30,571 nucleotides of DNA from a virus. Taxonomy: Duplodnaviria; Caudoviricetes. The stretch is taken from IMG/VR virus record IMGVR_UViG_3300045118_000099, positions 1-30,571 of that record; one strand, written 5' to 3'. Position 1 is the stretch's first letter. Every line of letters begins with the position of its first letter. The position numbers were made by a program, and so were the translations under genes. This document shows, one piece after another, positions 15,350 through 30,394 of the stretch. The notes under the pieces were generated by a model. It was not told where the DNA came from, made no database searches, and saw only the letters and a program-made list of their open reading frames with translations.

Positions 15350-17220
15350 ATTTGTGATTGATTAGTTTGATTTATTTCTGTTTTAAGCGGTGATGCCGCT
15401 TCTTGAGGCGACCTTTTTTCTGCTCCCACATTTAATTGTGGTTGCATTTTTTGCATTTGCATTTGTTGCATTATTTGTTGTTGTTGCATTATCATTTTCT
15501 TTTGTTCGGTTAATCTCGCTTCATGTTCTGCTAAGTGAAACCATATAGCGTTTGTTTTTGGAAATACAGCCCTATGAATATAAATATGCTCTTGGTGATT
15601 TTCTTCTTCGTTTGTCTGAACATAATTATCTTTAGAAAGTATTTCATTTTCTTCTCCGGCCCTTAACTCATCTAATGTTTTAGGAAACATTGTGTCTATT
15701 AACGACGGGTCTTCTAAGAACTTAGGAAAGAACACATATTTATTAAAATTTCTCATTCCATCTGGGCCAATAGTTTGAACCAAATTAGGATATAACTGCA
15801 TTAAATCTCTTCTTAAAACCAATTCTTTGTATTCTGCTTCTTTGGCTGAATAAACAAATATGCCTGGAGGAAAATCTGTATTGAAATCTTTGAAATCTAT
15901 TTCAGTTGATTCAACTCCCTTTACTCCCACTATGTTAGCTATTTTTGTTTTTAATTCTTTGCCATTTTTTGCATATCTATGGAACCAATGACTCCAAAAC
16001 TCTGATTCTCCAAATTGTAAAACCTTTGATTGCAATGATTGTGCCATATCGTTTAATTGTTGGTCTATCGCTCGTTCTGTGGCTGTGGTGGGTTTTCCTT
16101 TAACAGGTTGCAACACTTGCCCTGTTCCCATTGGTTCATTGGCTTCTTGAGTTAAAAGAGATATAAACGCTATAAGCCCTTGAGACATCGGGTCTTCGGT
16201 ATTCAGTGGCCAAACAGCATCTTGACTTTCCATTGGAATATGTTGGTTAATCTGTCTTTGAAAAAACTGGCTTATGTCTTTAACCTTATCAGGATTATAA
16301 CCGTAAATTGGATTAGCCCTATCTTTAGCGGCTATAAAAGCAAGATTAAGTAATACAGACTTTGCTCTATGCTTGTCTTCCAACAAATCAGCCACAGAAA
16401 ATACAACTGACGAATGTGGTTCTCTAAACGCTTCTTTTACCACAATAGGCCATTTTGACAATCCTTCTTCCTCATCATCTTCTAAATCTAATTTCTCTTG
16501 CATTAAAATCTTGCTAAATCCTTTATCTAACCAATAAACAGTTTTGTTTCCCTCGTCATCATATCCATAAAACTCTAAAATTTGGTAAACATCTCCTGCT
16601 ACCGTATCTACGGCTGGCTCTATTGTTTTCTTGGCAGCATCTCTCTTAACCTTATAATCCCATAAATCAGACTCAATTCCACTTGGTATTTCCTTTGGGT
16701 CTTTAATGCCAGTAATAATACCTTTCTTAATAAGCCGTTTTAAGTCCCATTTGCTCTTTGTTATCCATTTCCAATAATATCGCCACTCTTGCACATTTTC
16801 AAAATACGGGTCATAACCAAATACTAACGGATTGATAATGTGCGGCTTCATTATCTTTTGCTTTTTGTCAAACTGCAAAGTCTCGCAATATCCTCTGCCA
16901 AAAAATAATGTGTCCCATACCCAGTCATAGTCAATCTTTGATTTTGACATTTCCAAATAGTCTGATTGGGATAAAATGTTATACGAATTTATCTGATTTT
17001 GAGTAATACCCTGCGAAGGCAAAAACTTAATCTGCAATTTATTATCATAAAGGCTTGATAATAAACGATTAAATAAAGTAAGCAAAAGCGTTGAAGCTAT
17101 ATTTTGGTCTCCTCTTTGTAAATTGTTAAGCAGGACAAGTTGTTTTACTTGCCTTCGCTTCCTTTCTGATAAAAAGTTTTGGCTCTCTCGATAAAAACTT
17201 TCTATGTTCTCGGGTTTCAT
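15346..17220 (-). CDS. Portal protein (P22-like)
   Basis: 624 aa, downstream of TerL. Segments DTLFFGRG, DPY, P...SVADLLED, TTATE, and a Q/M-rich C-terminal tail. Confidence 0.85.
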   Translation of the reverse strand: MKPENIESFYRESQNFLSERKRRQVKQLVLLNNLQRGDQNIASTLLLTLFNRLLSSLYDNKLQIKFLPSQGITQNQINSYNILSQSDYLEMSKSKIDYDWVWDTLFFGRGYCETLQFDKKQKIMKPHIINPLVFGYDPYFENVQEWRYYWKWITKSKWDLKRLIKKGIITGIKDPKEIPSGIESDLWDYKVKRDAAKKTIEPAVDTVAGDVYQILEFYGYDDEGNKTVYWLDKGFSKILMQEKLDLEDDEEEGLSKWPIVVKEAFREPHSSVVFSVADLLEDKHRAKSVLLNLAFIAAKDRANPIYGYNPDKVKDISQFFQRQINQHIPMESQDAVWPLNTEDPMSQGLIAFISLLTQEANEPMGTGQVLQPVKGKPTTATERAIDQQLNDMAQSLQSKVLQFGESEFWSHWFHRYAKNGKELKTKIANIVGVKGVESTEIDFKDFNTDFPPGIFVYSAKEAEYKELVLRRDLMQLYPNLVQTIGPDGMRNFNKYVFFPKFLEDPSLIDTMFPKTLDELRAGEENEILSKDNYVQTNEEENHQEHIYIHRAVFPKTNAIWFHLAEHEARLTEQKKMIMQQQQIMQQMQMQKMQPQLNVGAEKRSPQEAASPLKTEINQTNQSQI

Positions 17221-17630
17221 TTTTTCTTTTTACTAAAAATATTTTGCAAGGTTGTGGGTCTGTCAAATATACTTACTCCCCATCTTGCTTCGCACAATAC
17301 AGCTATGCGATAACCTTTATTATTAAAAATTATTTTAGGGTCATGGTCTTCTCTTATTGATAATCCATCTTTCCATAAAAAATCTCTTATGTATTTTGCA
17401 TGACTATTAAAAAAATCCTGCTTGTTGTTTTTAGCACGCTCTATTTCTTCTTTCATTATACGCTTTTTCCAGTCAAAGTCAAATACTCGCACAATTAGTT
17501 TTTTACCAGTAGCGCTATCTATCAAAGGCGTATCAGCTTTTATGGCTAAATCTCGTTCTGTCCATTCAGTATTTTTACCTAATCCTTTTTCAATTCCTTT
17601 TCTTTCTTCTGATTGATATTCTTTAACCAT
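17217..17630 (-). CDS. Hypothetical protein between TerL and portal
   Basis: 137 aa, overlapping both neighbours. Confidence 0.7.
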   Translation of the reverse strand: MVKEYQSEERKGIEKGLGKNTEWTERDLAIKADTPLIDSATGKKLIVRVFDFDWKKRIMKEEIERAKNNKQDFFNSHAKYIRDFLWKDGLSIREDHDPKIIFNNKGYRIAVLCEARWGVSIFDRPTTLQNIFSKKKK

Positions 17631-19017
17631 TGTATCTTTCTATTATTGGAGCTTGATTAGCCCAAATGTCCTCTGCGATATCGTAAAATTCTCGCCCCCT
17701 ATTCATTTTAATTATTTTTTCTTTTTTAATTGTTTCACTTTTAATAGCTTGTGTCAACACTGCCGCATCAACACAATTCGGCGATGCCAAACCTTCTTTT
17801 AGCAAATCTTCTTTAGGCTGTATTCTAATCACTCCATCTTTATTTTGATATCTTATAGTTTCAAATTCATTCCAACCATAATTAGCCAATAGTCTTCCTC
17901 CTGATAACAACCATTGCCTTTCTCTCCAGTGCCATTCTGCTTTTAAATTTTGGAACATTTCATCTTCTGATTTCTCGCCAAACGATACACCCCTAACTGG
18001 ATAATCTAAATCTTTTAGCCTATCAAATACTCCCTGCCCTACTCCTGTTTTATCTATAACAATAAAATCTGCTTTGCAGTCTCTGTATTTTTCCATAATC
18101 ACTCCAACCAAATCCATTGTATTTTGCAGTTTCTGATTAAACAATATCTCTTGTAAATTTCCGCTTCTCAAAACTATTGCTGAATTATCACCGCCTGCAG
18201 CTGGGTCAACCCCTAAAATTCTATAACCTGAATGCTCGCCTTGTTGAACTATTACTGATTGATATTCTCTATCGTTTAATAACCTAATATATCCCTTCTC
18301 GTCTATTGCTTCGTCAAATGCGTCCCAATTGGCTTCTAAATAAGCTTTACGCTGTGCTTCTGGCAAACTTTCTAATGATTTATAATACTCTTGCGGTAAA
18401 TAAGGATTATCTGTTGGTAATGCCGGAACATACACAAACTCATATTGCTCTTTTTCTTCTGGCGGGAATAGTCTTTTAACCCACATATTCTTTACCCACG
18501 CCTCACCTATTGGATTGCAAGCGGCCATAAATCTAACATCTGGTATTCCTTCCCACCTTAAACGCTTTCTTAATTCTCTAAATGTGCTTATAGGATTTCT
18601 GTTTATCTCATCTACTCCCATTGCGGCAAACTCAACTGACAAATACTTTTCAGGGTCGTCTAAGTTTCTAAATGCTATAATTCCACTTCCGTATTCTGGG
18701 GCTAATGTAAACTCGTGTTTCGCTTCATTAAACTTACCTAACCAATGAGGAAACTCAAACTTAACTTTTGTCAAATGCCTATCATTAAGTGAAACATAAT
18801 CTTCGCAAAATAATCCTACTCTAACTCCTTTCTTATCATATTTAGAGTAAAACTTGGTAAGCCAATAAATCATCGACCATCTTAACCAGTGCGACTTACC
18901 ACTACCCAAACTCCCCCCATATAGCACAAATTTGAAACGCTTACTTGCATTTAATGCTTCAAGTTGCTTCGGTAAAAAGTGGCTCAACTCTGTAAATTTT
19001 ATAATTTCGTCTGCCAT
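17623..19017 (-). CDS. terL: Terminase large subunit
   Basis: Walker A YGGSLGSGKS, Walker B MGVDE, motif III ACNP, and RNase H-like nuclease motifs GVDPA.GGD, IDKTGVG, SPN.VDA. Confidence 0.95.
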   Translation of the reverse strand: MADEIIKFTELSHFLPKQLEALNASKRFKFVLYGGSLGSGKSHWLRWSMIYWLTKFYSKYDKKGVRVGLFCEDYVSLNDRHLTKVKFEFPHWLGKFNEAKHEFTLAPEYGSGIIAFRNLDDPEKYLSVEFAAMGVDEINRNPISTFRELRKRLRWEGIPDVRFMAACNPIGEAWVKNMWVKRLFPPEEKEQYEFVYVPALPTDNPYLPQEYYKSLESLPEAQRKAYLEANWDAFDEAIDEKGYIRLLNDREYQSVIVQQGEHSGYRILGVDPAAGGDNSAIVLRSGNLQEILFNQKLQNTMDLVGVIMEKYRDCKADFIVIDKTGVGQGVFDRLKDLDYPVRGVSFGEKSEDEMFQNLKAEWHWRERQWLLSGGRLLANYGWNEFETIRYQNKDGVIRIQPKEDLLKEGLASPNCVDAAVLTQAIKSETIKKEKIIKMNRGREFYDIAEDIWANQAPIIERYNG

Positions 19018-19564
19018 TTCCCTTAATTAAATTATCAATAGCCCATAATGGTTGTAAATTTGTATAATGAAATGCTTTCTTCTGTTGCTCTAAATCTGTT
19101 AAATCAAATTGGTCAAGTGGTATTTTATGGTCAATGTGCCAACCTTTTCTACCATAATTTTGCCAATTCATTCCTTGTGTAAATTGTTTTTCAATATAAA
19201 TTTTTAATTCTGGTATGCTACATCCTAAAAGTATTTCTGTTTGACAAATCTTTTTTGTTTTTTTCCTATACAATGCTCCCCACAAACGAGTTCTAAAATT
19301 ATGAGATAAGCGTGCCTGAATACTATTTTTTCTTTGTTGCACCATATATTCTCTATGATGCTTCATTTCTCTTTCTTTATTTTTTAATCTATAAAGAATT
19401 GCAGTAGCTTTTCTTCTTGCCCATCTAATAGGGTCGGCTTTTATTGCTTTATATTGCTCTTTTGAACGACGATTAGCTTCTGCACGATTATTTGCAGTCC
19501 ATATTCGCATATACTCTCTATTTCGTTTTCTCTTTCTCTCTAAAGCTGTTTCCATTCTATTCAT
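18959..19564 (-). CDS. HNH-type (endonuclease VII-like) putative homing endonuclease
   Basis: Basic helical N-terminus, then LLGCS..EL..YIEKQF..GMNWQNYG..GWHIDH.IP...FDL...FHYTNLQPLWA.DNL.K. Confidence 0.85.
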   Translation of the reverse strand: MNRMETALERKRKRNREYMRIWTANNRAEANRRSKEQYKAIKADPIRWARRKATAILYRLKNKEREMKHHREYMVQQRKNSIQARLSHNFRTRLWGALYRKKTKKICQTEILLGCSIPELKIYIEKQFTQGMNWQNYGRKGWHIDHKIPLDQFDLTDLEQQKKAFHYTNLQPLWAIDNLIKGNGRRNYKIYRVEPLFTEAT

Positions 19565-19823
19565 CTACTGAGATTACTTTTTTAGTTATCTCAATATCAC
19601 CCTCAACTTCTGTTTTGGGATTTCCTTCTCCCATCTTCCAAACATCTATTTTATTAAGCCCCTCTAAATATGCATCTAATTGTTCATCATCCATTTGAGC
19701 TAATCTCTCTTTTACTCTTTCTTTTAATGATTTACCACCAGCCCTACCATTAGGATTTGATATCTGTCCTTTCTTAAATTGGTATGGAAGCAAGTGTTCT
19801 GTTTTTGGATTTGGATTTGCCAT
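19557..19823 (-). CDS. Terminase small subunit-like protein (DUF5681-like)
   Basis: 88 aa with FKKGQISNPNGR motif, positioned upstream of TerL. Confidence 0.7.
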   Translation of the reverse strand: MANPNPKTEHLLPYQFKKGQISNPNGRAGGKSLKERVKERLAQMDDEQLDAYLEGLNKIDVWKMGEGNPKTEVEGDIEITKKVISVDE

Positions 19824-19836
19824 TTTAATTGCTTAC

Positions 19837-20607
19837 TTATAGACATAGTTGACTATATTTATTTTTGTGTTGTTTTAAATATTCCGGCCATTCACTCTCG
19901 TCTACTTTATACTTAAAATCTCTCCCCAAAAAGTCTTTGTTATTTTTTATATTATCCTCTAAATTATCTAAAACTTTGTTTGTTGCATAACTATCTTGCG
20001 TATAAGAATCAGTCAATTTATCCATTACCTTTTGAGTTCCGCCCATTGAGGTAAAATGCCAACCCCATTCTGTTTGTGTTTTAATATGATTAGTGCTTCT
20101 AAGATGATTTAAACATTTGCCTTGTATATTTTTACACTTTCCGACAATAGTTCCCCAAAATTGTTCTGTGCTTTTGTTATTAAGCCAATAAGTATAAACT
20201 CCTAATTTTAATTTGAAAATTGCCTTGTCGTCAACAGGGAATAAATTATAAATTTCATCAACATCTCCTATATATATTATATCATTTTTTTTAATATCTA
20301 TCAAGCAATCCTTAATGCTTTCTTTTTGGCACCACTCTCTCAGCCAATGTTTAGCTCCTTCGCCATAATTCGTATTAGGACTTTTCTTGGCTTCTTCCCA
20401 ATACTTGCCCCAAGTATCTTCTGTAATAAAATAATGTTTTACCTTATCCCAATTTTGATTAAACTTTTTTTCCTTTGGCTTACCTGAAAACGTTTTGTCA
20501 AACTCAATTACACGAAATTCGTCCACATAGTCTTTAAGTATGTTGTATCTAATTTCAAACAATTCCTGCTCGCCATTAAATGAAACCACATCAATTATTT
20601 TACTCAT
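19837..20607 (-). CDS. Glycosyltransferase family 17-like (beta-1,4-GlcNAc transferase/MGAT3-like)
   Basis: Motifs IID..SFNGE.EL.EIR..IL..YVD.F..IE...TFSG, GDVDEI, GWHF. Confidence 0.8.
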   Translation of the reverse strand: MSKIIDVVSFNGEQELFEIRYNILKDYVDEFRVIEFDKTFSGKPKEKKFNQNWDKVKHYFITEDTWGKYWEEAKKSPNTNYGEGAKHWLREWCQKESIKDCLIDIKKNDIIYIGDVDEIYNLFPVDDKAIFKLKLGVYTYWLNNKSTEQFWGTIVGKCKNIQGKCLNHLRSTNHIKTQTEWGWHFTSMGGTQKVMDKLTDSYTQDSYATNKVLDNLEDNIKNNKDFLGRDFKYKVDESEWPEYLKQHKNKYSQLCL

Positions 20608-21230
20608 GCCAACTTTGCAAACTTATTTTCTTTAATATAATACTTCAATTCTTCTCTTATTTTTTCATCAACCAACCTTCTATTCATACAAAATACATTT
20701 CTATAACCAATATACTCCATATCAAACCTGTTTTCCAATAAACGATGGAAGCAATCCTTATCATTCCAATGTTCGTATTGAATATACTTACAATTACTTA
20801 TTATCTCGCTTGCACCAATTAATACTTTGTAATCATAACCCTCTGTGTCTATTTTCAAAAAATCTATCTTTTTTATTTTATTTTCTTTTACATACCAATT
20901 AAGTGTTTTTATTGGCAATATTGAATTTACCTCTCCTGTTGGAGACGAACCATCAATAAACGCTTGATGTCCATTATTATAACCAACTTCACACTCTCTA
21001 TCTCCCAAACCATAATTATTCAAAAATACATTTTCTCTATTACCGACTATTCTTTTTAATTCTGCAAAAAATTCTGTGTTTGGCTCAAAAATATGCAATT
21101 TTATATTCGGCTTTAATTCTAAATACTCAACATCAATCCTTGCTCCTACGTCAAAAACAATCTTTATATTTTTCAATCTATTAAATAAATCTAATTCTGG
21201 TCGTGGAATTTTGTCTTGTTCTAATGCCAT
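20604..21230 (-). CDS. FkbM-family SAM-dependent methyltransferase
   Basis: Motifs VFDVGA, FEPN, IDFLKIDTEGYD..VL.GA, IQYE. Likely start at 21230 (the track gives 21254). Confidence 0.85.
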   Translation of the reverse strand: MALEQDKIPRPELDLFNRLKNIKIVFDVGARIDVEYLELKPNIKLHIFEPNTEFFAELKRIVGNRENVFLNNYGLGDRECEVGYNNGHQAFIDGSSPTGEVNSILPIKTLNWYVKENKIKKIDFLKIDTEGYDYKVLIGASEIISNCKYIQYEHWNDKDCFHRLLENRFDMEYIGYRNVFCMNRRLVDEKIREELKYYIKENKFAKLA

Positions 21231-21820
21231 AATAAATAATAACTTCTCTCGCAAAATTGTGCCTCTACGGGTTCTTTTGCATAAGGAAGATACGACCTCA
21301 TTTCTTTATAAAACTCTTTTGGATATCTATGCACTCTTTCTCTTGTAAGAATATAATTTCCGCCGGGACTAAAAGGAATATAGGCTGGTTTTGGTAATTT
21401 GAAATGGTCTGCCCATTCATTAAATGTTTTAAAATATTTTGTTGGAAATTGATTGGCATACCACGAATTGTTAATTTCTCTATACATTCCATTTTCATCA
21501 TACCAACATATTGGCATATATGTTTTATGATTTTGGGTGAGCAAAGGCGTAAAGTCCTTTCTATCCCTTATTATATCAAATTCTTCTTTGGAAATCGACT
21601 TAAACAGATTGGTCTTACTCCACAAAAATACATCTGGCAAGTTATCGTAATTATCCACCAAATATCCTAATCGGTCAAAATCCACTTGACCTATGTTTTC
21701 TGTCTTTATCGTATTTGGAAAATCAAAAGGTTTTTCAGAGCGGTCATAAATAAGCCAATCTGATGTATATTCTTTTACCCATTCAGGATTATTATTATAA
21801 CTTACAAGAATATATTTCAT
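21221..21820 (-). CDS. DUF3431-like putative glycosyltransferase-related protein
   Basis: Motifs LVSYN...EW, ENIG, YLVDNYDNLPD, FSPGG.Y...RE.V..YP.EFY, CER. Confidence 0.65.
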   Translation of the reverse strand: MKYILVSYNNNPEWVKEYTSDWLIYDRSEKPFDFPNTIKTENIGQVDFDRLGYLVDNYDNLPDVFLWSKTNLFKSISKEEFDIIRDRKDFTPLLTQNHKTYMPICWYDENGMYREINNSWYANQFPTKYFKTFNEWADHFKLPKPAYIPFSPGGNYILTRERVHRYPKEFYKEMRSYLPYAKEPVEAQFCERSYYLLWH

Positions 21821-22002
21821 TCTTTATACAAAATTTCAAGAGCTTTTTCTGTTAAAAAACAATCATTATTTTGTTCGTATTCTTTATCGCCATTTAAATG
21901 CTTTTTGGTTAATTTATAATTATTTTTATATCCCCACGGATGAGTATCATGCCAATGGTTGCATCCTTTTGGTATTTTTCTTTGATAAATTCCTGATGAC
22001 AT
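21817..22002 (-). CDS. Hypothetical protein
   Basis: 61 aa, fills the gap and is ATGA-coupled to the next gene. Confidence 0.5.
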   Translation of the reverse strand: MSSGIYQRKIPKGCNHWHDTHPWGYKNNYKLTKKHLNGDKEYEQNNDCFLTEKALEILYKE

Positions 22003-22003
22003 A

Positions 22004-22756
22004 TTAAATATAAAGAAATCTTTTGTAATAATTTTGGGGCAATGCCCACACTTTTGTATTTCTACGAGCCCAAAATTTCGGTGCTATTGTTAATCCTTTG
22101 TTTAACCATCTTGGCAATATAAAAAACGAACTATTGGCTATTATCGCATATTTTGCAAATCTCATTGAACGCCAGTTTATTCCAATATCGTGTATTACTT
22201 TATAATCAGGAAAAAACTCTTTTGCAGTTATTTCATCGTCAGTATGCACTTCAAACCTCATTTTAGGATTTATCTTTTTCATCATTTCAATTGCTTCATT
22301 CCAATATTCTTTTGTTAAAAATAAATCAGGAAAAACTTTAAACTCGCCACCCCTAAATCCTATAACACAAACATCATCAGACATTTCTAATGGTTCTACC
22401 TTCAACCATTCATTAACTTCTTTCTCATATTTTTCCCAATATCTTTCGTCTTGGAACTCACCATCTATAATTGTATTGTCCTCTATAAAATTAAACTCTG
22501 GGTCGTATGAACGAATATCTACTCCATTTTCTATAACCCTTTTTTCTTGCCATTGTTTCATATTTACAGACCAACCATCTATTATTGGCTGTTCTAAAAA
22601 AAACTTACCCTTAAAACCATGTTCTTTACCAGAACCATCTTCATTATAAATCATCTGATAGTCAACCCCCAATTCAAGAGCTTTAACTCTTGTAGCTACT
22701 AATCTGTGAAGTTGATTGCCCAAACCACTTCCTTGATGAAAATAACCTATAATCAT
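22004..22756 (-). CDS. Glycosyltransferase family 11-like (divergent)
   Basis: Motifs GSGLGNQL, GEFQDERY, IGFRGGEF (variant of HxRRGDY), IIANSSF. Confidence 0.75.
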   Translation of the reverse strand: MIIGYFHQGSGLGNQLHRLVATRVKALELGVDYQMIYNEDGSGKEHGFKGKFFLEQPIIDGWSVNMKQWQEKRVIENGVDIRSYDPEFNFIEDNTIIDGEFQDERYWEKYEKEVNEWLKVEPLEMSDDVCVIGFRGGEFKVFPDLFLTKEYWNEAIEMMKKINPKMRFEVHTDDEITAKEFFPDYKVIHDIGINWRSMRFAKYAIIANSSFFILPRWLNKGLTIAPKFWARRNTKVWALPQNYYKRFLYI

Positions 22757-23385
22757 AAAAACAATGAACCAAATTCTATATTTCTTCCTGGTTTTACTTT
22801 ATTATAATGAAAGGTAAATGGCTTATCCGCATCTTGATTTTCTGGTATTTCCAACTCTCTTCCAAAATGTTTAGCAACTTCCAATGGAGCAAACTTACAA
22901 CCTTGTTTTTCAAGCCACTTTCTATTATGACAACAAATAAATCCATCTTCGTTATAATTTCCAAAATATGGTTTCCACTCTTTTTGGGCCATTAAGTCCA
23001 TTAGTTTTTTACTTCGCAAAGAAACACTATTACCAACCCTAACTATTTCCCCTTCTTCGTCTCTGTAAGAAAACGAATCTTGTGGCAAAGGCCAGGGTGC
23101 ACCTATGTAATCATATTTCAACCACTCGTCTCGCCAACTTTCAGGATTAACTACAAATCCGTTCTCGTGAATCAAAAGACAAAAATCTGTTTCCACATAC
23201 TTTGGCATTTCATAAATCATAGCCTTACTCCAAGAATCAATGTCTTTAATTTCATCTAATTGAATATATTTAACTGCCCCAAACTCTATATTTTTACAAG
23301 AATAATTAAAAGCATTAACCATTTTATCGGTTCTATATCCTATTCCACTAAAACCTATTAAAGTAACATCAGGAAGTTTTATCAT
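22753..23385 (-). CDS. DUF5672-family putative glycosyltransferase
   Basis: Motifs YVETDFCLLI, YDYIGAPW, VGN.VSLRS, NEDGFIC, FAP.EVA..F. Likely start at 23385. Confidence 0.75.
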   Translation of the reverse strand: MIKLPDVTLIGFSGIGYRTDKMVNAFNYSCKNIEFGAVKYIQLDEIKDIDSWSKAMIYEMPKYVETDFCLLIHENGFVVNPESWRDEWLKYDYIGAPWPLPQDSFSYRDEEGEIVRVGNSVSLRSKKLMDLMAQKEWKPYFGNYNEDGFICCHNRKWLEKQGCKFAPLEVAKHFGRELEIPENQDADKPFTFHYNKVKPGRNIEFGSLFL

Positions 23386-24541
23386 AAAATTTCTTAAAAA
23401 CATCTACAATATATTTTAAATCCTTTGGCGTATAACGAGGATGCACCGTAAACCAAAGCGAATGCTTTAATATCCACTCTGACTCTTTCAAGCCTCCACT
23501 CTTTCTAAAAATACTATTCTGATAAGCCGGATGATAATCCACCCGACCAGTAAACATAGTTCTCGTCTCAATCCCATTTTTATCAAGCCATTCTATCAAT
23601 TCTGGTCGCCTACTTTGAACTGAAATAGGAAATCCAAACCAACAAATATCAGCTCCTTTAATCCATTTTGGCATAATTAACTCATCAAATTTACTCAATT
23701 CTTTGTATAAATAATTAAAGTTTCTTTTTCTTAATTTTTTAATCTTCTCTACTTTTCTTAATTGAACCCTACCCATAGCTGCTTGCAATTCAAGTGGTGA
23801 TAAGTTATATCCTATTTTCTCATAAATATAACGAGGGTTTTGGTCATAAGGCAATTTAGGATATTTAGTATTCTTTCTCATTTTCAAATTAGCTTGCCTA
23901 CCCCAATCTCGATACATTCTAACCTTTTGGGCCAATTCTTTATTATTCGTAAAAGTTCCACCACCTTGCCCCATTGCAATAATATGAGCTGCGTGAAAAC
24001 TCGTAAAGTTTATATGCCCAAAACTGCCAACTTTTTTGCCCTTAATGGTGCTACCCCAAGCATCACAGAAATCTTCTAATACTATTAAGTTTTTTTCCTT
24101 AGCCAAAGTCATTAAAGCAGGCATATTAACCACATTTCCCAAAAGGTGAACAGCTATTACAGCTTTTGTTTTTTCAGTAATAGCCTTTTTTACATCTTCT
24201 ACATCCAAACAATAAGTCCCTATTTTAGCGTCAATTACAACAGGCACTAACCCACATTGCAAAATTATATTAAATATAGTTGGAAATGTCACAGCTGGGA
24301 TAATCACTTCACTTCCTTTAGGTAATTCCAAAGCAGATAAAGCAAGCAATGCCGCAGATGAACCAGAATTGGCAAGTATTCCATATCTTACCTTTAAATA
24401 TTTAGCACATTCTTTTTCCATTAAATCCACTTCCTTATCAGCTTGCCACCAATTCCTATCAAGAACTTTATTTATTGCATCTCGTTCCTGTTTTCCGAAT
24501 AATGCCCCTCCATAAGTAAAACGATAATTATTATTTTTCAT
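23369..24541 (-). CDS. DegT/DnrJ-fold PLP enzyme, His-type NDP-4-keto-6-deoxyhexose 3-dehydratase (RfbH/DdhC- or ColD-like)
   Basis: Motifs NSGSSA.LLAL, TFPT, HLLGN, EDFCDA.G, SFHAAHIIAMGQGG (His at the Schiff-base Lys position), RDWGR, GYNL, WFGF, GIETR. Confidence 0.85.
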   Translation of the reverse strand: MKNNNYRFTYGGALFGKQERDAINKVLDRNWWQADKEVDLMEKECAKYLKVRYGILANSGSSAALLALSALELPKGSEVIIPAVTFPTIFNIILQCGLVPVVIDAKIGTYCLDVEDVKKAITEKTKAVIAVHLLGNVVNMPALMTLAKEKNLIVLEDFCDAWGSTIKGKKVGSFGHINFTSFHAAHIIAMGQGGGTFTNNKELAQKVRMYRDWGRQANLKMRKNTKYPKLPYDQNPRYIYEKIGYNLSPLELQAAMGRVQLRKVEKIKKLRKRNFNYLYKELSKFDELIMPKWIKGADICWFGFPISVQSRRPELIEWLDKNGIETRTMFTGRVDYHPAYQNSIFRKSGGLKESEWILKHSLWFTVHPRYTPKDLKYIVDVFKKFYDKTS

Positions 24542-25220
24542 CTAAGTAATCTTGCCATTTAATTGTATTTTTCCAATTAGGTGTTGTATTGGGCAACACA
24601 GCTTCTCTTGCCTCCTTGCGAGCTGGTGCAAACTTTATTTTCTTTCCTTTTGCAAGTTTTAAAACCGATGTGGCTTTTCCGTCTCCAAGACAATAAAATC
24701 TCTTATCCCAATCTTTTGCTAAAATTAACCCCTTAACTATATCATCAACATGCACATAACTTCTTGTCTGCATTCCATTTCCATAAACTATTACTTCGTC
24801 TTGTTCCTTAAAAATATCTATTACACTTTTACCACCCTTTTCTCCATAAACATTCGGCAACATACAAATTACATAATTATTGTGGAAATTTTGAATATAT
24901 TGCCCCGATGCCCACTTGGAAAAACCATAAGGTGATGTTTCAGGAGTTGCCGCAGACGCTGTATAAATAATCTTTGCATTAGGATATTCTCTTACCAGCC
25001 GAGCAGTCATTCTTAAATTATCCATATCGTGAACTGGGTCTTTCCAAGATGCTTCTACCGATGACTGGGCTGCTAAATGATAAATAACATCAATATCTTT
25101 TGGCAAATCACAAGTAATCAAGTTCTGTCCGTCTTTTAAATCAATTCCAATTCCACCTATCTTTTTAAAAAGGCGAGAACCAATCATACCCCGATATCCA
25201 GTAATTAAAATGTTTGACAT
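24531..25220 (-). CDS. Compact NAD-dependent epimerase/dehydratase (extended SDR)
   Basis: Motifs TGYRGMIG, HLAAQSSV..S, YGFSK (YxxxK), NVYG, RSYVHVDD. Confidence 0.85.
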   Translation of the reverse strand: MSNILITGYRGMIGSRLFKKIGGIGIDLKDGQNLITCDLPKDIDVIYHLAAQSSVEASWKDPVHDMDNLRMTARLVREYPNAKIIYTASAATPETSPYGFSKWASGQYIQNFHNNYVICMLPNVYGEKGGKSVIDIFKEQDEVIVYGNGMQTRSYVHVDDIVKGLILAKDWDKRFYCLGDGKATSVLKLAKGKKIKFAPARKEAREAVLPNTTPNWKNTIKWQDYLDEK

Positions 25221-26155
25221 AAATCTTTTATTATATCGCTAAGTGAATATTTATAATCCCATTCAGGATAATCCTTTCTAAACTTTGATATATCATGCAC
25301 ATCATATTTTCTGTCAGCCCACCTATTTTCTTTTAAATACTTTGATAAAAATGGCTTACCAACTTTTTTGCTTATTATTTCAGCAAACTCCTTAAGTGTT
25401 TTAGCTCTCTCTTTTCCTCCTCCCATATTATAAACTGCTGATATTTTTGGATTTTGAATAAAATGCCACATAGCATTAACTAAATCATAAGCATGCATCT
25501 GGTCTCTTACCTGTTCGCCATTAAAACCAAATATCCTGTATTTTTTACCTTCTTTTATACACTTCACAAGATAAGCCAAAAATCCATGCAATTCAGTTCC
25601 CTCGTGTGCTCTACCAGTAATACATCCACACCTAAAACAAGCAGTCTTTAAGCCATAACATCTGCCATATTCTTGAGTATATAGGTCTCCTGTAAGTTTA
25701 GAAACTCCAAATGGAGTTCTTGCTGTTTTATCCAATGGCACATTTTCATCCCATAAAGTTTCATTATTTCCTATATTTTCCCCATATACTTTATCGGTTG
25801 ACACATAAACAAATATAGCATTGGGACAATGCCTTCTCGTAGCGTCAAGCAAAGTGAATGTGCCAATCGCATTTATCATAAAATCTTCGGCTGGATGTTC
25901 TTTACTCCAATCGTGAGAAGCATTAGCAGCAGTATGAATTACCGCATCAAACTTATTTTTTTTAAAAAGTTCATCTATTCCAATAGCATCTCTTATGTCT
26001 AAAAATATATCAGGTTCTTTATCGGGTGTCCCTAAATTTATAGCTCTCATATTATTATCAATCCCAAAAACATTCCAATTTTTCTCTTTAAAAAACCTTA
26101 CAGCCTCTGAACCAACAAGACCAGTTGAACCAGTAATCAAAATAGTCTTTTTCAT
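25205..26155 (-). CDS. NAD-dependent epimerase, CDP-paratose 2-epimerase (tyvelose epimerase)-like
   Basis: Motifs TGSTGLVG, HTAA..SHD, STDKVYG, PFGVSK..GDLY.QEYGR.YG..T..FR.GCITG, QVRD. Likely start at 26155. Confidence 0.8.
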   Translation of the reverse strand: MKKTILITGSTGLVGSEAVRFFKEKNWNVFGIDNNMRAINLGTPDKEPDIFLDIRDAIGIDELFKKNKFDAVIHTAANASHDWSKEHPAEDFMINAIGTFTLLDATRRHCPNAIFVYVSTDKVYGENIGNNETLWDENVPLDKTARTPFGVSKLTGDLYTQEYGRCYGLKTACFRCGCITGRAHEGTELHGFLAYLVKCIKEGKKYRIFGFNGEQVRDQMHAYDLVNAMWHFIQNPKISAVYNMGGGKERAKTLKEFAEIISKKVGKPFLSKYLKENRWADRKYDVHDISKFRKDYPEWDYKYSLSDIIKDLCQTF

Positions 26156-26156
26156 A

Positions 26157-26750
26157 TTAGACAACAATCCAACCTTCATCAGTTGGATATTTAGTTCTTT
26201 CAACACCATCAGCATAATATTCTTTTGGCATAATTATTTTTTTATCCTCATTTGGGTTAAGAAACGCAGCCCACCAAGAAAAACTGCTATTTGCTCCAAT
26301 TAAACCCTGACAACTTGCCATGGCATTTAAGTCATCGACCTCATTTTGACCTTCCCAAATTTCAAACTTAACACCCTTCTTTGTCAACCATTCCGAAACC
26401 CATTGCCTATCTTGATAGTCATTAGTCCCCTGCCTATCCCTATAAAATACAAGAAATTTATCATTTGGAAATTGCTCTATTGCTTTGTCATAATAATTTG
26501 TATTTGTCAAATCAACATAAAAGGGATTATCAACATAATCACCTCTTCGGATATGCAAAGCAACAAATTCTTTTCTTTTACCAATTCCATCTTGATATAT
26601 TTTCCTTATTTCTTCTTTAAACTCTTTAAAATATTTAAAATCCTGAATATAAATATCTGGTATCAGTCCCTTGCGAACTTGTGAGTAGATATAGGCGAAC
26701 TGAAACATTCTATTACCTAAACCTCCCGAAATTTTACGAAATTCTTTCAT
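26157..26750 (-). CDS. Glycosyltransferase family 11 (alpha-1,2-fucosyltransferase-like)
   Basis: Motifs GGLGNRMFQ, HIRRGDY, ANSSFSWWAAFL. Confidence 0.9.
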   Translation of the reverse strand: MKEFRKISGGLGNRMFQFAYIYSQVRKGLIPDIYIQDFKYFKEFKEEIRKIYQDGIGKRKEFVALHIRRGDYVDNPFYVDLTNTNYYDKAIEQFPNDKFLVFYRDRQGTNDYQDRQWVSEWLTKKGVKFEIWEGQNEVDDLNAMASCQGLIGANSSFSWWAAFLNPNEDKKIIMPKEYYADGVERTKYPTDEGWIVV

Positions 26751-26756
26751 ATTATT

Positions 26757-27794
26757 TTAGGCAATCCATTCTTTATGTTCGGTTTGCCACTTAATTGTAT
26801 TTTTTAACGACTCTTCAAAAGTTAATGGCGACTTCCAACCTAACTCATGGAGCTTTGTCATATCAAGTTGATAATGCCTATCATGTCCAGGGCGCAATGT
26901 ATGCACATTCACAACTTCATACTCAAAATCCTCTTTACCCATAAGTTTAGCAATCAACTTTGCCAATTCTAAATTATCAAGTTGCAAATCGCCTGCTATA
27001 TTATATCTATCTGGCCTATCAACTGCATCTGGGGTATGCAAGTGAGCTGGAAGTTTTTGAAGAATAAACAATAAAGCATCTGCAAAATTACGAGAATGAA
27101 TATAAGAACGAGAACCAATTTCTACTTTATCACCCCTTTTTTCACCATGAATAATTACTTTTTCATTATTAGCAATCCATTTTTGAACCATCACAGGAAA
27201 TTTAGAAGGTTGTTGCATTTCTCCAAAATTATTCATTGTATTGGTAATAATAACTGGCACATCATAAGTTCGCCAATAAGATATAGCAATCATTTCTTGC
27301 GCTGCCTTGCTTGCTGCATAAGGATTTGATGGTAAAAATACTCCCCACTCCTTAACTCCAATATCATTTTTATTAGCCACAGGGCCATAAACCTCATCAG
27401 TCGATATTTGTATAAATGCTTTTGGCTTCACCTTTCTCGCAAATTCAAGCATATTTATCGCAAGACTAATGTTATTTTGGACAAAAGGAACAGGGTCTTT
27501 AATACTTGCCTCAACATCAGACAAAGAAGCCATATTTATTATATAATCTATATGCCCTATCTCTCCTGCAACAACGGGCGACAAAGGATTAGTAAGGTCG
27601 TGAATAATAAGGTCATACCTGCTTATCCACTCAGGATGATTGTCGAAAATTACAGCATTCCTATTAAATAAACCCTTATGAACCATACTATCAATGCCAA
27701 CTATATCCCAATCAGTATTTGTAAAAATGTGGGTTATAACATGGGTTGCTATTGAGCCACCCGACCCTGTAAGCAAAACTCTTTTTTTATCCAT
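26757..27794 (-). CDS. rmlB: NDP-glucose 4,6-dehydratase (dTDP-glucose 4,6-dehydratase-like)
   Basis: Motifs TGSGGSIA, AS.SDVE.SI..P..F..NN, ISTDEVYG, PSNPYAASKA, RPGHD.HY. Confidence 0.8.
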   Translation of the reverse strand: MDKKRVLLTGSGGSIATHVITHIFTNTDWDIVGIDSMVHKGLFNRNAVIFDNHPEWISRYDLIIHDLTNPLSPVVAGEIGHIDYIINMASLSDVEASIKDPVPFVQNNISLAINMLEFARKVKPKAFIQISTDEVYGPVANKNDIGVKEWGVFLPSNPYAASKAAQEMIAISYWRTYDVPVIITNTMNNFGEMQQPSKFPVMVQKWIANNEKVIIHGEKRGDKVEIGSRSYIHSRNFADALLFILQKLPAHLHTPDAVDRPDRYNIAGDLQLDNLELAKLIAKLMGKEDFEYEVVNVHTLRPGHDRHYQLDMTKLHELGWKSPLTFEESLKNTIKWQTEHKEWIA

Positions 27795-28374
27795 ATTTTT
27801 GTTTTAAATAGTTAATTTCTTCTAATTTTTGCTCGTCTGTTAAAAGGTAGGTCATTTGATGATTTCCGACCCCTATCCCAACCTCTATGTCTATTAAAAT
27901 CTTGGGCTTACCAAATCTTTTTTCTAATCTTTTATACAAATCACAATCAAGCATCCACGACAATCTTTCATCAAAAAAAACATTTTTACCCAATCTATTT
28001 CTAAAAGCCAATGCAGAAGGTGAGCCAAGTTTATTATTGCCAGTATGAATATCATCTATCCATTTTGGTTCTTTATTGGTAGAAGCCGAAGTAATTACCC
28101 AGTCCACCTTTTTATCTAAAAATGCTTCATATAATTTTTCTAAATAATTATCAGATTCCAACCAGTCGTCTACATACAAAACCTTAATAATCTCACCTTT
28201 TGCAGACTCTATAACTCTATTAGAAGTTATAGGCATTGTAGAATGCTTTATTAAAATTACTTCGTAATCAGTAAAAGCTTGTTTTTCAATAGACTCTAAA
28301 CAATTTGTCAAAAAGAATTGCCAGTTTTTCATTCCAAAGTGAAATGGGATTGCAATAGAAATTTTAGGTGTCAT
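27787..28374 (-). CDS. Glycosyltransferase family 2-like (compact GT-A)
   Basis: Motifs ISIAIP, CLESI..Q.F.DYEVI, AKGEII..L..DD, GSPS, FDE.L...LDCD. Confidence 0.75.
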   Translation of the reverse strand: MTPKISIAIPFHFGMKNWQFFLTNCLESIEKQAFTDYEVILIKHSTMPITSNRVIESAKGEIIKVLYVDDWLESDNYLEKLYEAFLDKKVDWVITSASTNKEPKWIDDIHTGNNKLGSPSALAFRNRLGKNVFFDERLSWMLDCDLYKRLEKRFGKPKILIDIEVGIGVGNHQMTYLLTDEQKLEEINYLKQKYG

Positions 28375-29075
28375 TTTGGTAATGGAGTATTAACATTTGT
28401 TATTATATTAAGTTCAGGAAAATCCTTACTTATTTGTCCCCACAATTCAGTGGCGTGTTTGTTGGCTTCGTGAATCATAGAATGCTCTTTCGTTCGGTAT
28501 AACCATAAAACTTCGGGTATAGTAATCAACTTCTTTCCTCTTAAAAGCAAGTTGAATGTAAGATGCATATCTTCCCACCCACACCACATCTTCGGACTAT
28601 ACCCCCCTACTTCTAATAACACCTCTCTTTTGATTGCACTACAATAACCAACCCTATTGCCAACTTTAAAATCTTCTATTTTAGGGTCTGCCATTAAAAT
28701 AATCTCATTTTGCACTATTCCAAAACACTTAAACGAAGGAGAAATTATATCTGCGTTTGTTTCTTCTGCCATCTTTGTTATTTTTTCAATAGCATTTTCT
28801 AATAACATATCATCTGCGTCTAATGGCAACACATAATCCCCTGTTGCATTCATTATCCCAGTATTCCTTGCACTAGGCAGACCCCTATTAGTTTGTGATA
28901 TAACCTTAACTCCATCTTTTTCAAAACTTTTGGCAATTGCCAAACTATTGTCAGTTGACCCGTCATCAACAACAATTATTTCGTAAGCCTTAACAGACTG
29001 CTCTAATGCCGAACTTATGGCACTGGCGAGATATTGTTGCTGATTAAAAGATGGAATTATGATTGAAATTTTCAT
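28371..29075 (-). CDS. Glycosyltransferase family 2
   Basis: Motifs SIIIPSFN, VVDDGSTD, N.GL..ARN.G, LDADD, VGGY, ED. Likely start at 29075. Confidence 0.92.
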   Translation of the reverse strand: MKISIIIPSFNQQQYLASAISSALEQSVKAYEIIVVDDGSTDNSLAIAKSFEKDGVKVISQTNRGLPSARNTGIMNATGDYVLPLDADDMLLENAIEKITKMAEETNADIISPSFKCFGIVQNEIILMADPKIEDFKVGNRVGYCSAIKREVLLEVGGYSPKMWCGWEDMHLTFNLLLRGKKLITIPEVLWLYRTKEHSMIHEANKHATELWGQISKDFPELNIITNVNTPLPK

Positions 29076-29088
29076 ATTTATAAAGGAA

Positions 29089-29343
29089 TTAAAACAATGG
29101 CCTACCATTGATTGTTTTTCCTCTAAACTTTTCTCTTGTCTTATCTAATTCCTCCCAATACACTTCTTCCCAAGTTTTAACACCAAATACATTCATTAAC
29201 ATAATAACAAATGGAGTAAAAAGTATTATTGAAATCATAAGTATAATTTCATCTGTAGTGATATTTTTAAATAAAGGAACTACAAGTGAAATCATAAACA
29301 TTGCAATAATAACAATTAACGATATTCTAATTTTTTCATTCAT
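29089..29343 (-). CDS. Small membrane protein (2 predicted TM helices)
   Basis: Two hydrophobic stretches (ISLIVIIAMFMISLVVPLF; IILMISIILFTPFVIMLM) and a charged C-terminal tail. Confidence 0.6.
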   Translation of the reverse strand: MNEKIRISLIVIIAMFMISLVVPLFKNITTDEIILMISIILFTPFVIMLMNVFGVKTWEEVYWEELDKTREKFRGKTINGRPLF

Positions 29344-29368
29344 ATTTTTCCTCTTACGAGGTAGTTAA

Positions 29369-30394
29369 TTATAATGTTTTTAATTGTTCGTTAATTGCCT
29401 GTCCGCCTTCTTTATTCACAGAAAAACGCTTCGTTAAAGTGATAATCTTGGGCGAATAATTACGACCCCAAAGTTTGACATAATATTCTTGAATCAAACT
29501 ATCAGGATAAATATATGCCGGGGATAAAGTAATCACGGGTGGATTTTCTTTTAAATACTTATTCCAATGAGACTCGTCATTCCACCTTGCTACATAATTA
29601 CCTTTTTCAAAATCCAAATCAACAGTTTTTCTTATTGCTTTCATTGCTTTAATAAATTCTTTTGACTTTCCACCTTGAAATCCCCCAGCATAATAAGTAT
29701 TGCTGAAGGGAATATAGGCCGCAGATTCTGGGTTTGGCTCAAAGGGAGCAATATAATTTTGCCTCAAAGCATACATTGGATGTAAAGCCGCAGTTATCCC
29801 ATCACCTAAAATCTCATCTCCCACATAATTAACAAACAACATATCTATATCGCAATAGAAAATATAATCATATTCTTGCAATTTTTCCTCTTGTTGCAAA
29901 AATGTATGATAACGGAATAATGTAGGCAACGGCCACTCTACTGATTCAAGTTCAAAGAAATTAACCTCTTTTCTTGTTTTAACCAAATCGCCAATCAATT
30001 TATCCATATCCTTTATTTTATTATCGTCCATTAAAATTGCCGCAGAGGAGGCATCTATAACCGATGCTTTGGCCTGTCCTAACCTTAAATAACTTTCAGC
30101 AAGTTTTTGCCTAATTATTTCAGGATTATCCGGCAAATCCGACCATGCAAAATAATCAACCTGATGTCCTGGCAAGAAAAATTGTTTTGCCCCCTCTATA
30201 ACTTTTGGCATAAATTCCCAATAAGGTGAATTTAAACAAATAAAACAAAGGGCTACTTTGTATTTTGGCAACTCTTGTGATTGAACTGCATAATTGAAAA
30301 ACTCTTTAACCACCGAAACATCATTAGCAGAATATTCACCTTCAGTTCTCGTCTGAAAAAAATTGGAAGCCAATCTTGTAAGTTCCTCATTCAT
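29369..30394 (-). CDS. Glycosyltransferase family 6 (ABO blood-group transferase-like, DXD type)
   Basis: Motifs FFLPGHQVDYFAWSD, WP..TL.RY, YDYIFYCDIDM, HP, YYAGGFQGG, WNDESHWNKYL, LSPAY, matching the GT6 motif order. Confidence 0.9.
   Translation of the reverse strand: MNEELTRLASNFFQTRTEGEYSANDVSVVKEFFNYAVQSQELPKYKVALCFICLNSPYWEFMPKVIEGAKQFFLPGHQVDYFAWSDLPDNPEIIRQKLAESYLRLGQAKASVIDASSAAILMDDNKIKDMDKLIGDLVKTRKEVNFFELESVEWPLPTLFRYHTFLQQEEKLQEYDYIFYCDIDMLFVNYVGDEILGDGITAALHPMYALRQNYIAPFEPNPESAAYIPFSNTYYAGGFQGGKSKEFIKAMKAIRKTVDLDFEKGNYVARWNDESHWNKYLKENPPVITLSPAYIYPDSLIQEYYVKLWGRNYSPKIITLTKRFSVNKEGGQAINEQLKTL

What the first reader, a model, noticed from the sequence alone, without database searches (positions are those of the whole stretch)
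19837..30394. Phage-encoded ~10.5 kb soluble glycan-assembly pathway joined to the virion morphogenesis operon
Seen: 6 recognisable glycosyltransferases (GT6, 2x GT2, 2x GT11, GT17), 2 GT-like DUFs, 4 nucleotide-sugar enzymes and a methyltransferase, mostly overlapping or nearly abutting, ending 13 nt before TerS with no obvious terminator. The enzymes show no TM anchor or signal peptide, and no flippase, polymerase or GtrA/B/C-type genes are present. Known: serotype-converting phages use membrane Gtr systems, whereas chloroviruses, mimiviruses and some mycobacteriophages glycosylate virions with their own enzymes. Inference: a late-expressed system building a complex, methylated oligosaccharide on the virion (shield, host-surface mimic or adhesin).
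Basis: partly seen in the sequence, partly recalled or inferred. Interest (0 to 1): 0.9.

Follow-up and report, generated by a model that had tools for sequence, protein, structure and literature searches.

The report
Podovirus glycan factory, quarter of genome
A widespread group of small uncultured lake and groundwater phages spends about a quarter of its genome on a conserved set of sugar-building and sugar-transferring genes, which likely coat the virus particle with a complex glycan, although the target has not been shown.

Summary
The cluster is real and not an assembly chimera: a contig from another study spans the junction. It is a clade-wide cassette. Eight glycosyltransferase-fold genes run from GT6 to GT17 in 10 of 13 related phage records read whole, filling 21-27% of the eight 41-44 kb genomes measured. 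Both DUFs fold as GT-A enzymes; DUF5672's top match, tied, is the chlorovirus capsid glycosyltransferase A064R. The 'DegT' gene is an E1-type C3-dehydratase without the Fe-S loop, so the donor is likely a tyvelose-type 3,6-dideoxyhexose; some relatives swap in a lysine-type aminotransferase. No integrase, priming transferase, thymidylate synthase or multi-pass membrane protein was found in near-complete relatives. That favours virion glycosylation (about 0.55) over host-surface remodelling (0.3) or DNA (0.05). Homologous islands exist in cultured Synechococcus phages and a huge phage. This is a new variant of a known kind; acceptor and host are unproven.

The parts
29369..30394 (-). GT6 (ABO/BoGT6a-like alpha-1,3-Gal(NAc) transferase family); first gene of the cassette
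   Evidence: Pfam PF03414 E 3.5e-27; PDB 4ayj E 5e-30; found in 10 of 10 related records searched
29089..29343 (-). 84-aa membrane protein with two hydrophobic stretches; specific to this window, probably not part of the pathway
   Evidence: hydropathy 2.87; no homolog in related loci
28371..29108 (-). GT2a, family 2 glycosyltransferase
   Evidence: PF00535 E 2.8e-37; DDGStD and DaDD motifs conserved
27787..28374 (-). GT2b, divergent family 2 glycosyltransferase
   Evidence: PF00535 24.8 bits; present in 23 of 29 sequences, conserved DD
26757..27794 (-). RmlB-like NDP-glucose 4,6-dehydratase
   Evidence: TIGR01181 194.8 bits, below its cut-off of 365; 9 of 9 PDB hits at E<=1e-25 are (d)TDP-glucose 4,6-dehydratases
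26157..26750 (-). GT11a, family 11 (fucosyl/colitosyl-type) transferase
   Evidence: PF01531 E 4.1e-19
25205..26215 (-). SDR, likely NDP-paratose 2-epimerase (tyvelose epimerase-like)
   Evidence: best PDB hit CDP-tyvelose 2-epimerase 9rl0, E 4.3e-33; next 3.7e-26
24531..25220 (-). short SDR; inferred 4-ketoreductase or epimerase, specificity not determined
   Evidence: PF01370; only generic PDB hits, best E 7.9e-15
23369..24541 (-). E1/RfbH-type PLP-dependent C3-dehydratase: His186 at the lysine position of aminotransferases, Fe-S cysteine loop deleted
   Evidence: best PDB 3bcx E 3.5e-72 with alignment; RfbH 335.9 bits; motif in relatives
22753..23403 (-). DUF5672, predicted GT-A glycosyltransferase; fused to a methyltransferase in some relatives
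   Evidence: model pLDDT 89; Z 12.6 to PBCV-1 A064R 2p6w, tied with LH3 GT at 12.5; fusion
22004..22756 (-). GT11b, divergent family 11-like transferase
   Evidence: PHROG 2644 E 1.6e-6; no Pfam hit; conserved in 28 of 29 sequences
21817..22002 (-). 61-aa ORF specific to this window; relatives often carry homing-endonuclease inserts inside the cassette
   Evidence: no family, no homolog; HNH/NUMOD3 inserts in relatives
21221..21820 (-). DUF3431, predicted divergent GT-A-like fold
   Evidence: model pLDDT 97; best Z 7.5 and nearly all top-50 rows GT-A or nucleotidyltransferase folds; no Foldseek hit at E<=0.001
20604..21254 (-). FkbM-family methyltransferase (accessory)
   Evidence: TIGR01444 above cut-off; in 9 of 29 sequences
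19837..20607 (-). GT17 (beta-1,4-GlcNAc transferase family); last gene of the cassette
   Evidence: PF04724 E 3.5e-16
19557..19823 (-). small terminase-like protein, 13 nt after GT17
   Evidence: position and DUF5681 weak hit; conserved before TerL in relatives
17623..19017 (-). terminase large subunit (preceded by an endonuclease VII/HNH-like ORF, 18959-19564)
   Evidence: PHROG 2 E 7e-29; PHROG 1035
15346..17220 (-). portal protein, SU10 type
   Evidence: PF23899 E 9.6e-11
11277..12341 (-). major capsid protein, N4-gp56 family; candidate acceptor
   Evidence: TIGR04387 above cut-off; PHROG 1357
12045..12155 (-). 37-residue Gly/Ala/Ser/Thr-rich insertion in the capsid protein (residues 63-99), absent from sister lineages; candidate glycosylation loop (E-loop position recalled, not modelled)
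   Evidence: alignment; long loop in 115 of 126 aligned capsid proteins, short in 11; wider family median 316 aa

Best explanation
A conserved cassette of eight glycosyltransferase-fold genes, a swappable deoxysugar-donor module and an optional methyltransferase likely builds a defined oligosaccharide in the cytoplasm of the infected cell and likely attaches it to the phage's own particle. Shown: the genes, their order, their conservation across a clade of 40-44 kb podovirus-like phages, and the absence of the searched integrase, priming-transferase and thymidylate-synthase families. Inferred chemistry: a host NDP-glucose is dehydrated at C4/C6, deoxygenated at C3 by an E1-like enzyme without an Fe-S cluster (so probably by ColD-type PLP/glutamate chemistry), reduced, and epimerised at C2 to a tyvelose-type 3,6-dideoxyhexose; the transferases add sugars one at a time from nucleotide donors, with no lipid carrier. 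Inferred acceptor: an outer virion protein, with the clade-specific Gly/Ser/Thr loop of the capsid protein as a candidate site. Inferred priming enzyme: DUF5672 or DUF3431. The purpose (shield, adhesion, stability) is not constrained by these data.
For: All eight transferase genes are present in 10 of 13 records read whole; G013 has three, G014 and G015 none. The cassette spans 9.0-11.6 kb, 21-27% of the eight genomes measured. Pairwise identities of GT17, DUF3431, GT6 and GT11a track the portal (Mantel rho 0.49-0.69) as well as capsid (0.51) and TerL (0.34) do, while RmlB and DegT track weakly (0.2). In 12 records at least 90% complete: tyrosine integrase 0 of 12, Bac_transf priming transferase 0 of 12, thymidylate synthase 0 of 12, with controls ringing. 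No ORF with three or more hydrophobic stretches in 13 records. A TerL-profile scan of GTDB gave 3 contigs; the stretches read hold no host flank. In 9 of 12 near-complete records the cassette runs on the same strand into TerS/TerL, G019 only across its record ends. G010 keeps the cassette before a different terminase. A sister lineage (L234) carries a different set, two GT4-like and one GT2, between TerL and portal. DUF5672 matches PBCV-1 A064R (Z 12.6, rmsd 3.7, 183 aligned), tied with LH3 GT (12.5) and AfGfsA (12.0). Atlas clusters of both DUFs are 82-100% viral among members with a record. Precedents: soluble chlorovirus transferases, Megavirinae clusters of 6-33 genes with clade-specific sugars, glycans on mycobacteriophage Che8 capsid.
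Against: The cassette is antisense to the structural genes in G011 and G012 and cut off from TerL by two antisense genes in G017. It starts after NinG in G011, G012, G017 and G019, so middle expression is as likely as late. The enzyme families are those of O-antigen synthesis, and similar islands in pelagimyophages and cyanomyoviruses are read by their authors as host-surface modifiers. Virion proteins are Ser/Thr-rich, but so are those of cassette-free relatives: capsid 18.0% in the clade against 16.6% in 112 distant capsids and 18.5-20.8% in G014 and G015. No conserved C-terminal serine: 11 of 39 capsid proteins end in Ser, 0 in Gly-Ser. The capsid loop and the cassette are one clade, so one event, and short-loop relatives L234 and L252 also carry transferases. 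No gene matches a known protein-priming transferase family. The 4,6-dehydratase is dTDP-type while E1 and tyvelose epimerase are CDP enzymes, so the donor nucleotide is unsettled.
Confidence: 0.55

Rival explanations
1. The cassette rebuilds or caps a host surface glycan during infection. Its soluble transferases would extend host lipid-linked or protein-linked acceptors at the inner face of the membrane and rely on host priming and export, to block rival phages or change how the cell is recognised.
For: GT2, GT6, GT11 and 3,6-dideoxyhexose pathways are O-antigen parts (GT6-GT11-GT2 in blood-group-like O-antigens is recalled). The cassette follows NinG and the replication genes and can lie opposite to the structural operon. 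The donor module varies like a serotype locus: His-type in 22, Lys-type in 5, none in 2 of 29. Authors read phage islands of this kind as host O-chain modifiers.
Against: No tyrosine integrase in 12 of 12 near-complete records, so no sign of the lysogenic state in which conversion usually pays. No priming transferase and no multi-pass protein: a new eight-step unit would need host export enzymes that accept it. The genes are phage lineages, not recent host captures: Patescibacteria RfbH at most 44% identical, DUF clusters mostly viral.
Confidence: 0.3
2. The cassette glycosylates phage DNA to block host nucleases.
For: Phage transferases can put diverse sugars on hydroxymethylcytosine, and such clusters can neighbour terminases and epimerases. 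DNA methylases occur next to the cassette in several relatives.
Against: No thymidylate-synthase homolog in 12 of 12 records, controls ringing in 10 of 14. No TET/JBP hit in 12 of 12, but no control rang. A C5 methylase was seen in only 1 of 6 complete genomes scanned. Eight transferases exceed what base glycosylation is known to use (recalled).
Confidence: 0.05
3. The product is a free or cytoplasmic glycoconjugate (decoy glycan released at lysis, or glycosylation of host or non-structural phage proteins), not a coat on the particle.
For: No export or anchoring gene, no acceptor tag found, and position not tied to the structural operon.
Against: No precedent found in the ten literature searches; repeated placement of unrelated transferase sets among packaging and head genes fits a particle target better.
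Confidence: 0.1

Closest known systems
Sugar islands of cultured Synechococcus myoviruses S-H68, S-B05, S-B43, RN05-S, RB11-B (and P-SSM2, S-SCSM2R)
   Same: Homologs of FkbM, GT17, GT11b, E1-type dehydratase, DUF5672, GT2b and GT11a in one island of about 17 kb; GT6 in P-SSM2; 13 transferases in S-SCSM2R.
   Different: About 200 kb T4-like genomes, different gene order, full-length E1 (431 aa, SFYPAHH), no DUF3431 or GT6 hit in the stretches read, island away from terminase; target untested and read as host cell-wall modification.
Huge phage LR756502 (642 kb, uncultured, unannotated)
   Same: GT6, E1, GT2b, DUF5672, DUF3431, GT11b, GT17 adjacent and in nearly the same order.
   Different: Part of a far larger island in a genome 15 times bigger; no function reported in the record.
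Megavirinae fibril glycosylation clusters and chlorovirus capsid glycosylation (PBCV-1 A064R)
   Same: Clustered soluble transferases plus rare-sugar pathways and methyltransferases, clade-specific sugars; DUF5672 shares the A064R GT-A fold and is sometimes fused to a methyltransferase.
   Different: Eukaryotic giant viruses with chemically proven glycans; 8% sequence identity; the fold match is tied with cellular enzymes.
Mycobacteriophage virion glycosylation (Che8; Freeman et al. 2023, seen only through citing papers)
   Same: Tailed phage with its own transferases; glycan on capsid protein.
   Different: Two or three transferases, no donor pathway reported in the passages read; glycans at the C-termini, whereas no C-terminal Ser or Gly-Ser tag is conserved here; no mycobacteriophage among hits for GT6, GT17, DUF5672 or DUF3431.
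Serotype-converting Gtr cassettes and O-antigen loci with the RfbG/H/S/E tyvelose pathway
   Same: E1-type dehydratase and tyvelose-epimerase-like SDR, GT2/GT6/GT11 families.
   Different: No integrase, priming transferase or multi-pass membrane protein; E1 lacks the Fe-S loop; the 4,6-dehydratase is RmlB-type.

Membership tests
Virus-encoded virion glycosylation | virus encodes several soluble glycosyltransferases | tested here: met
   eight GT-fold genes without membrane anchors
Virus-encoded virion glycosylation | glycan covalently bound to virion protein | not testable with these tools
   needs particles
Virus-encoded virion glycosylation | expression while particles are made | tested here: inconclusive
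   no RNA holder listed; same-strand link to TerS in 9 of 12, inverted in 2, interrupted in 1
Mycobacteriophage Che8-type cassette | conserved C-terminal Ser / Gly-Ser on capsid and tail proteins (feature taken from earlier scan notes) | tested here: not met
   capsid ends in Ser in 11 of 39, Gly-Ser in 0; no other virion protein has a conserved terminal Ser
Gtr-type serotype conversion | temperate phage with integrase | tested here: not met
   PF00589 in 0 of 12 near-complete records, control 14 of 14; serine recombinases not searched as a family, none seen in Pfam scans
Gtr-type serotype conversion | membrane GtrA flippase and GtrC transferase | tested here: not met
   no ORF with three or more hydrophobic stretches in 13 records (crude hydropathy scan)
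Complete O-antigen locus | priming phosphoglycosyl transferase plus flippase/polymerase or ABC exporter | tested here: not met
   PF02397 in 0 of 12; no multi-pass protein, which also excludes WecA-type
Phage DNA sugar hypermodification | thymidylate-synthase-type hydroxymethylase | tested here: not met
   PF00303 in 0 of 12, control 10 of 14
Phage DNA sugar hypermodification | 5mYOX/TET dioxygenase with C5 methylase | tested here: inconclusive
   PF12851 in 0 of 12 but no control rang
E1 (RfbH/DdhC) 3-dehydrase | His in place of the aminotransferase Lys | tested here: met
   His186 aligns with the residue that is Lys in the 3bb8 variant
E1 (RfbH/DdhC) 3-dehydrase | [2Fe-2S] cysteine motif | tested here: not met
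   cysteine loop deleted in the window and in all 12 relatives aligned; E1 and SpnQ have it, ColD lacks it
GT-A glycosyltransferases (DUF5672) | GT-A fold | tested here: met
   Z 12.6, 40 chains at Z>=8; Foldseek E 9e-6
GT-A glycosyltransferases (DUF3431) | GT-A fold | tested here: inconclusive
   best Z 7.5, within the range the tool calls common, shared with nucleotidyltransferases

The most novel reading that the evidence does not exclude
Small tailed phages carry their own serotype locus: a viral glycocalyx of about eight sugars, capped by a swappable rare deoxysugar made by an Fe-S-free E1 enzyme and displayed on a clade-specific capsid loop. Because the same genes sit in cultured cyanophages and a huge phage, many 'LPS' islands now counted as host-modifying auxiliary genes would really be virion-glycosylation systems.
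Probability: 0.3. Interest if true: 0.87.

Novelty: new variant of a known kind. Interest (0 to 1): 0.62.

Why it matters
Proven virion glycosylation in tailed phages is limited, in the papers seen here, to mycobacteriophages with two or three transferases. A large aquatic clade that keeps eight transferases and a donor pathway in a 42-kb genome must gain a lot from the product. If it goes on the particle, glycan coats are a common trait of environmental phages and a reinterpretation of the sugar islands of cyanophages and pelagiphages. The homologous island in cultured Synechococcus phages makes that open question testable now. The cassette also offers two uncharacterised GT-A families and an E1-like dehydratase that may work without an iron-sulfur partner.

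Tried and rejected
Assembly chimera at 19830: rejected. Ser/Thr richness of virion proteins as support: rejected, controls are as rich. C-terminal Ser tag: not found. Short capsid loop means no transferases: false for L234 and L252. Host assignment failed. The capsid query found nothing in GTDB. The TerL profile found 3 contigs, in MAGs labelled Cellvibrionaceae, Leptospira and Patescibacteria, with no host flank in the stretches read, and 2 of 401 Patescibacteria genomes, one of them the seed. RecA and GroEL of relatives are only 33-38% identical to anything tested. Start contexts lack Shine-Dalgarno motifs alike in the clade (23 of 252), Patescibacteria (8 of 84) and a Flavobacterium phage (4 of 66), by methods that differ. 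No RNA holder listed. No cultured relative by TerL or capsid (best 32% and 30%). TET search had no positive control. No tRNA. Freeman et al. 2023 is not held. Earlier-findings searches by sequence and by the first word set were empty. Literature searches that found no description of this clade or cassette; DUF5672 or DUF3431 occurs in 5 papers, and none of the 4 listed is on phages by title. Supplements were not read and could list these genomes.

Full report
Observation. The window is a whole 30,571-base virus record. From 30394 down to 19837 it holds 15 ORFs on the minus strand, overlapping or at most 25 nt apart, and GT17 ends 13 nt before a small terminase-like ORF. Pfam, PHROGs and NCBIfam confirm GT6, two GT2, GT11, GT17, FkbM, DUF3431, DUF5672, a DegT-family protein and three SDRs; the second GT11 rests on a PHROG hit alone. 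The enzymes have no membrane-like stretch; an 84-aa membrane ORF and a 61-aa ORF inside the run are peculiar to this window. Downstream lie TerL, an SU10-type portal, an N4-gp56-family capsid protein and genes that by position and size look like podovirus tail and ejection proteins (the tail assignment is inference). The DNA occurs in lake-water metagenomes, and a contig from another study covers 16128-21959 with one difference, so the junction is real.

A clade-wide cassette. TerL and capsid queries returned 42 and 35 viral loci. Of these, 14 of 14 with at least 5 kb upstream of TerL or portal hold cassette genes, and 32 of 37 with at least 2 kb (loci not reduced to one per contig). I read 13 related records whole. 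Ten carry all eight transferase-fold genes from GT6 to GT17, G013 carries three, and the more distant G014 and G015 none. In the eight genomes measured the cassette spans 9.0-11.6 kb, 21-27% of the genome. Pairwise identities of most transferases follow the portal about as well as capsid and TerL do (rho 0.24-0.69 against 0.51 and 0.34); DUF5672 does not (0.02), and the donor enzymes follow weakly (0.2). Kin share history, so this shows long residence, not function.

The sugar. The DegT-family protein is closest to E1, the CDP-4-keto-6-deoxyglucose 3-dehydrase (E 3.5e-72), has histidine at the position of the aminotransferase lysine, and lacks the cysteine loop. A review (PMC8987622, passages) states that E1 and SpnQ bind [2Fe-2S], that ColD does not, and that 4,6- then 3-dehydration leads to colitose, paratose, tyvelose and abequose. 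The 345-aa SDR matches dTDP-glucose 4,6-dehydratases and the 336-aa SDR best matches CDP-tyvelose 2-epimerase; the 229-aa SDR has only generic hits. I infer a tyvelose-type 3,6-dideoxyhexose by ColD-like chemistry; the nucleotide is unsettled and the window's cassette has no nucleotidyltransferase. The module is swappable: of 29 sequences, 21 have the window's motif, 1 another His type, 5 a lysine type and 2 none, and two relatives use GDP-mannose 4,6-dehydratase. FkbM is in 9 of 29; TylF, Methyltransf_24, a C-methyltransferase, GT47-like and radical-SAM genes appear in others.

The two DUFs. DUF5672 folds confidently (pLDDT 89) as GT-A; its best match among 48,161 chains is PBCV-1 A064R (Z 12.6, rmsd 3.7, 183 aligned), tied with the LH3 glycosyltransferase (12.5), AfGfsA (12.0) and mimivirus R699 (11.9). 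DUF3431 (pLDDT 97) reaches only Z 7.5, though nearly all top rows are GT-A or nucleotidyltransferase folds. Atlas clusters of both are 82-100% viral among members with a record.

Which acceptor? In 12 records at least 90% complete there is no tyrosine integrase, no Bac_transf priming transferase and no thymidylate synthase, with controls ringing; the TET search was also empty but had no positive control. No ORF in 13 records has three or more hydrophobic stretches. That argues against Gtr-type conversion, a complete O-antigen locus and the known DNA-glycosylation routes (bioRxiv 2023.12.21.572611, passages). For the particle: in 9 of the 12 the cassette runs on the same strand into TerS/TerL, often with GroES/GroEL or a DNA methylase between; G010 keeps it before an unrelated terminase; and a sister lineage has a different transferase set between TerL and portal. 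Cassette-bearing capsid proteins have a Gly/Ala/Ser/Thr-rich insertion, 37 residues in the window, that G014 and G015 lack; 115 of 126 aligned capsid proteins have the long form and the wider family has a median of 316 aa. Its place at the E-loop tip is recalled from the HK97 fold, not modelled.

Results against. In G011 and G012 the whole cassette lies on the strand opposite to TerL and capsid, and in G017 two antisense genes separate it from TerL. In four genomes it starts just after NinG, in three of them downstream of RecA, so it may be a middle module; chlorovirus capsid transferases are expressed early too (PMC5408694, passages), so timing does not decide. Ser/Thr content does not separate bearers from non-bearers. 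No terminal Ser or Gly-Ser tag is conserved. The loop and the cassette mark one clade, and short-loop relatives also carry transferases. O-unit transferases are soluble as a rule (recalled), so a host acceptor stays open.

Host. Endolysins (M23, amidase, CHAP) point to a bacterium. Shine-Dalgarno-like motifs are at background: 2 of 29 in the window, 25 of 229 in relatives, background 11%. That fits Bacteroidota (PMC6847099, search listing only) or Patescibacteria (8 of 84). No lipobox protein was found. Direct tests did not settle it.

Comparison with what is known. Large sugar islands in phages are known: 13 transferases in cyanophage S-SCSM2R (PMC12801897, passages) and LPS-type genes in pelagimyophages, read as host O-chain modifiers (PMC7029224, passages). 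Five Synechococcus phages hold homologs of GT17 and DUF5672; in the two read, FkbM, GT17, GT11b, E1, DUF5672, GT2b and GT11a share one island. Huge phage LR756502 has GT6, E1, GT2b, DUF5672, DUF3431, GT11b, GT17 side by side. Proven virion systems are Megavirinae clusters (PMC10117803, passages), chloroviruses and mycobacteriophage Che8 (through PMC11256854 and PMC12619734, passages; the primary paper is not held). The cassette works like these by design but is not shown to be a member. None of my searches found this clade or cassette described. Earlier scan notes describe other transferase cassettes beside terminases; they are leads, not support.

Verdict. Real, conserved and costly; a new variant of a known kind. 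Virion glycosylation 0.55, host surface 0.3, free or cytoplasmic product 0.1, DNA 0.05.

Noticed in passing
window 1-3123 (-), open at the record end: Long ORF with a coiled-coil start and a cysteine-rich repeat end (34 Cys in the last 260 of 1040 aa against 6 in the first 780); odd for a phage fibre made in the cytoplasm.
   Followed up: no
window 3520-5442 (-): Putative ejection protein with a C-terminal ART-PolyVal ADP-ribosyltransferase domain.
   Followed up: no
L086:16388-17950, L089:17310-18848, L093:5852-7423 and others: A divergent GroEL, with a small gene before it, sits between GT17 and TerS in 3 of the first 6 complete genomes, unusual for 42-kb phages; 35-36% identical to the nearest records.
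   Followed up: partly
L234:2322-5177: Sister lineage with two GT4-like and one GT2 gene between a different TerL and the portal.
   Followed up: partly
cassettes of L032, L033, L034, G003, G004, G011: HNH, NUMOD3 and AP2-type homing endonucleases are inserted repeatedly inside the cassette.
   Followed up: no
L051:412-2748: Terminase-sized ORF of 778 aa with an intein domain.
   Followed up: no
L323:29128-39944 (Flavobacterium phage vB_FspM_immuto_3-5A): A cultured Bacteroidota phage has its own run of glycosyltransferase, aminotransferase, methyltransferase and epimerase genes, only distantly related to this cassette; no paper held all four search terms.
   Followed up: partly
L183 (G381:C1:365001-385000): A run of same-strand ORFs with a distant TerL homolog at the end of a 386-kb Patescibacteria-phylum contig, probably a prophage; no other gene matched this clade.
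   Followed up: partly
L158:15001-17222 (G017): Amidoligase and glutamine-amidotransferase pair inserted antisense between GT17 and TerL.
   Followed up: no
L001:888-2963: A clade member with a 691-aa unknown ORF and no cassette gene in 3.2 kb before TerL; the record is 60% complete.
   Followed up: partly
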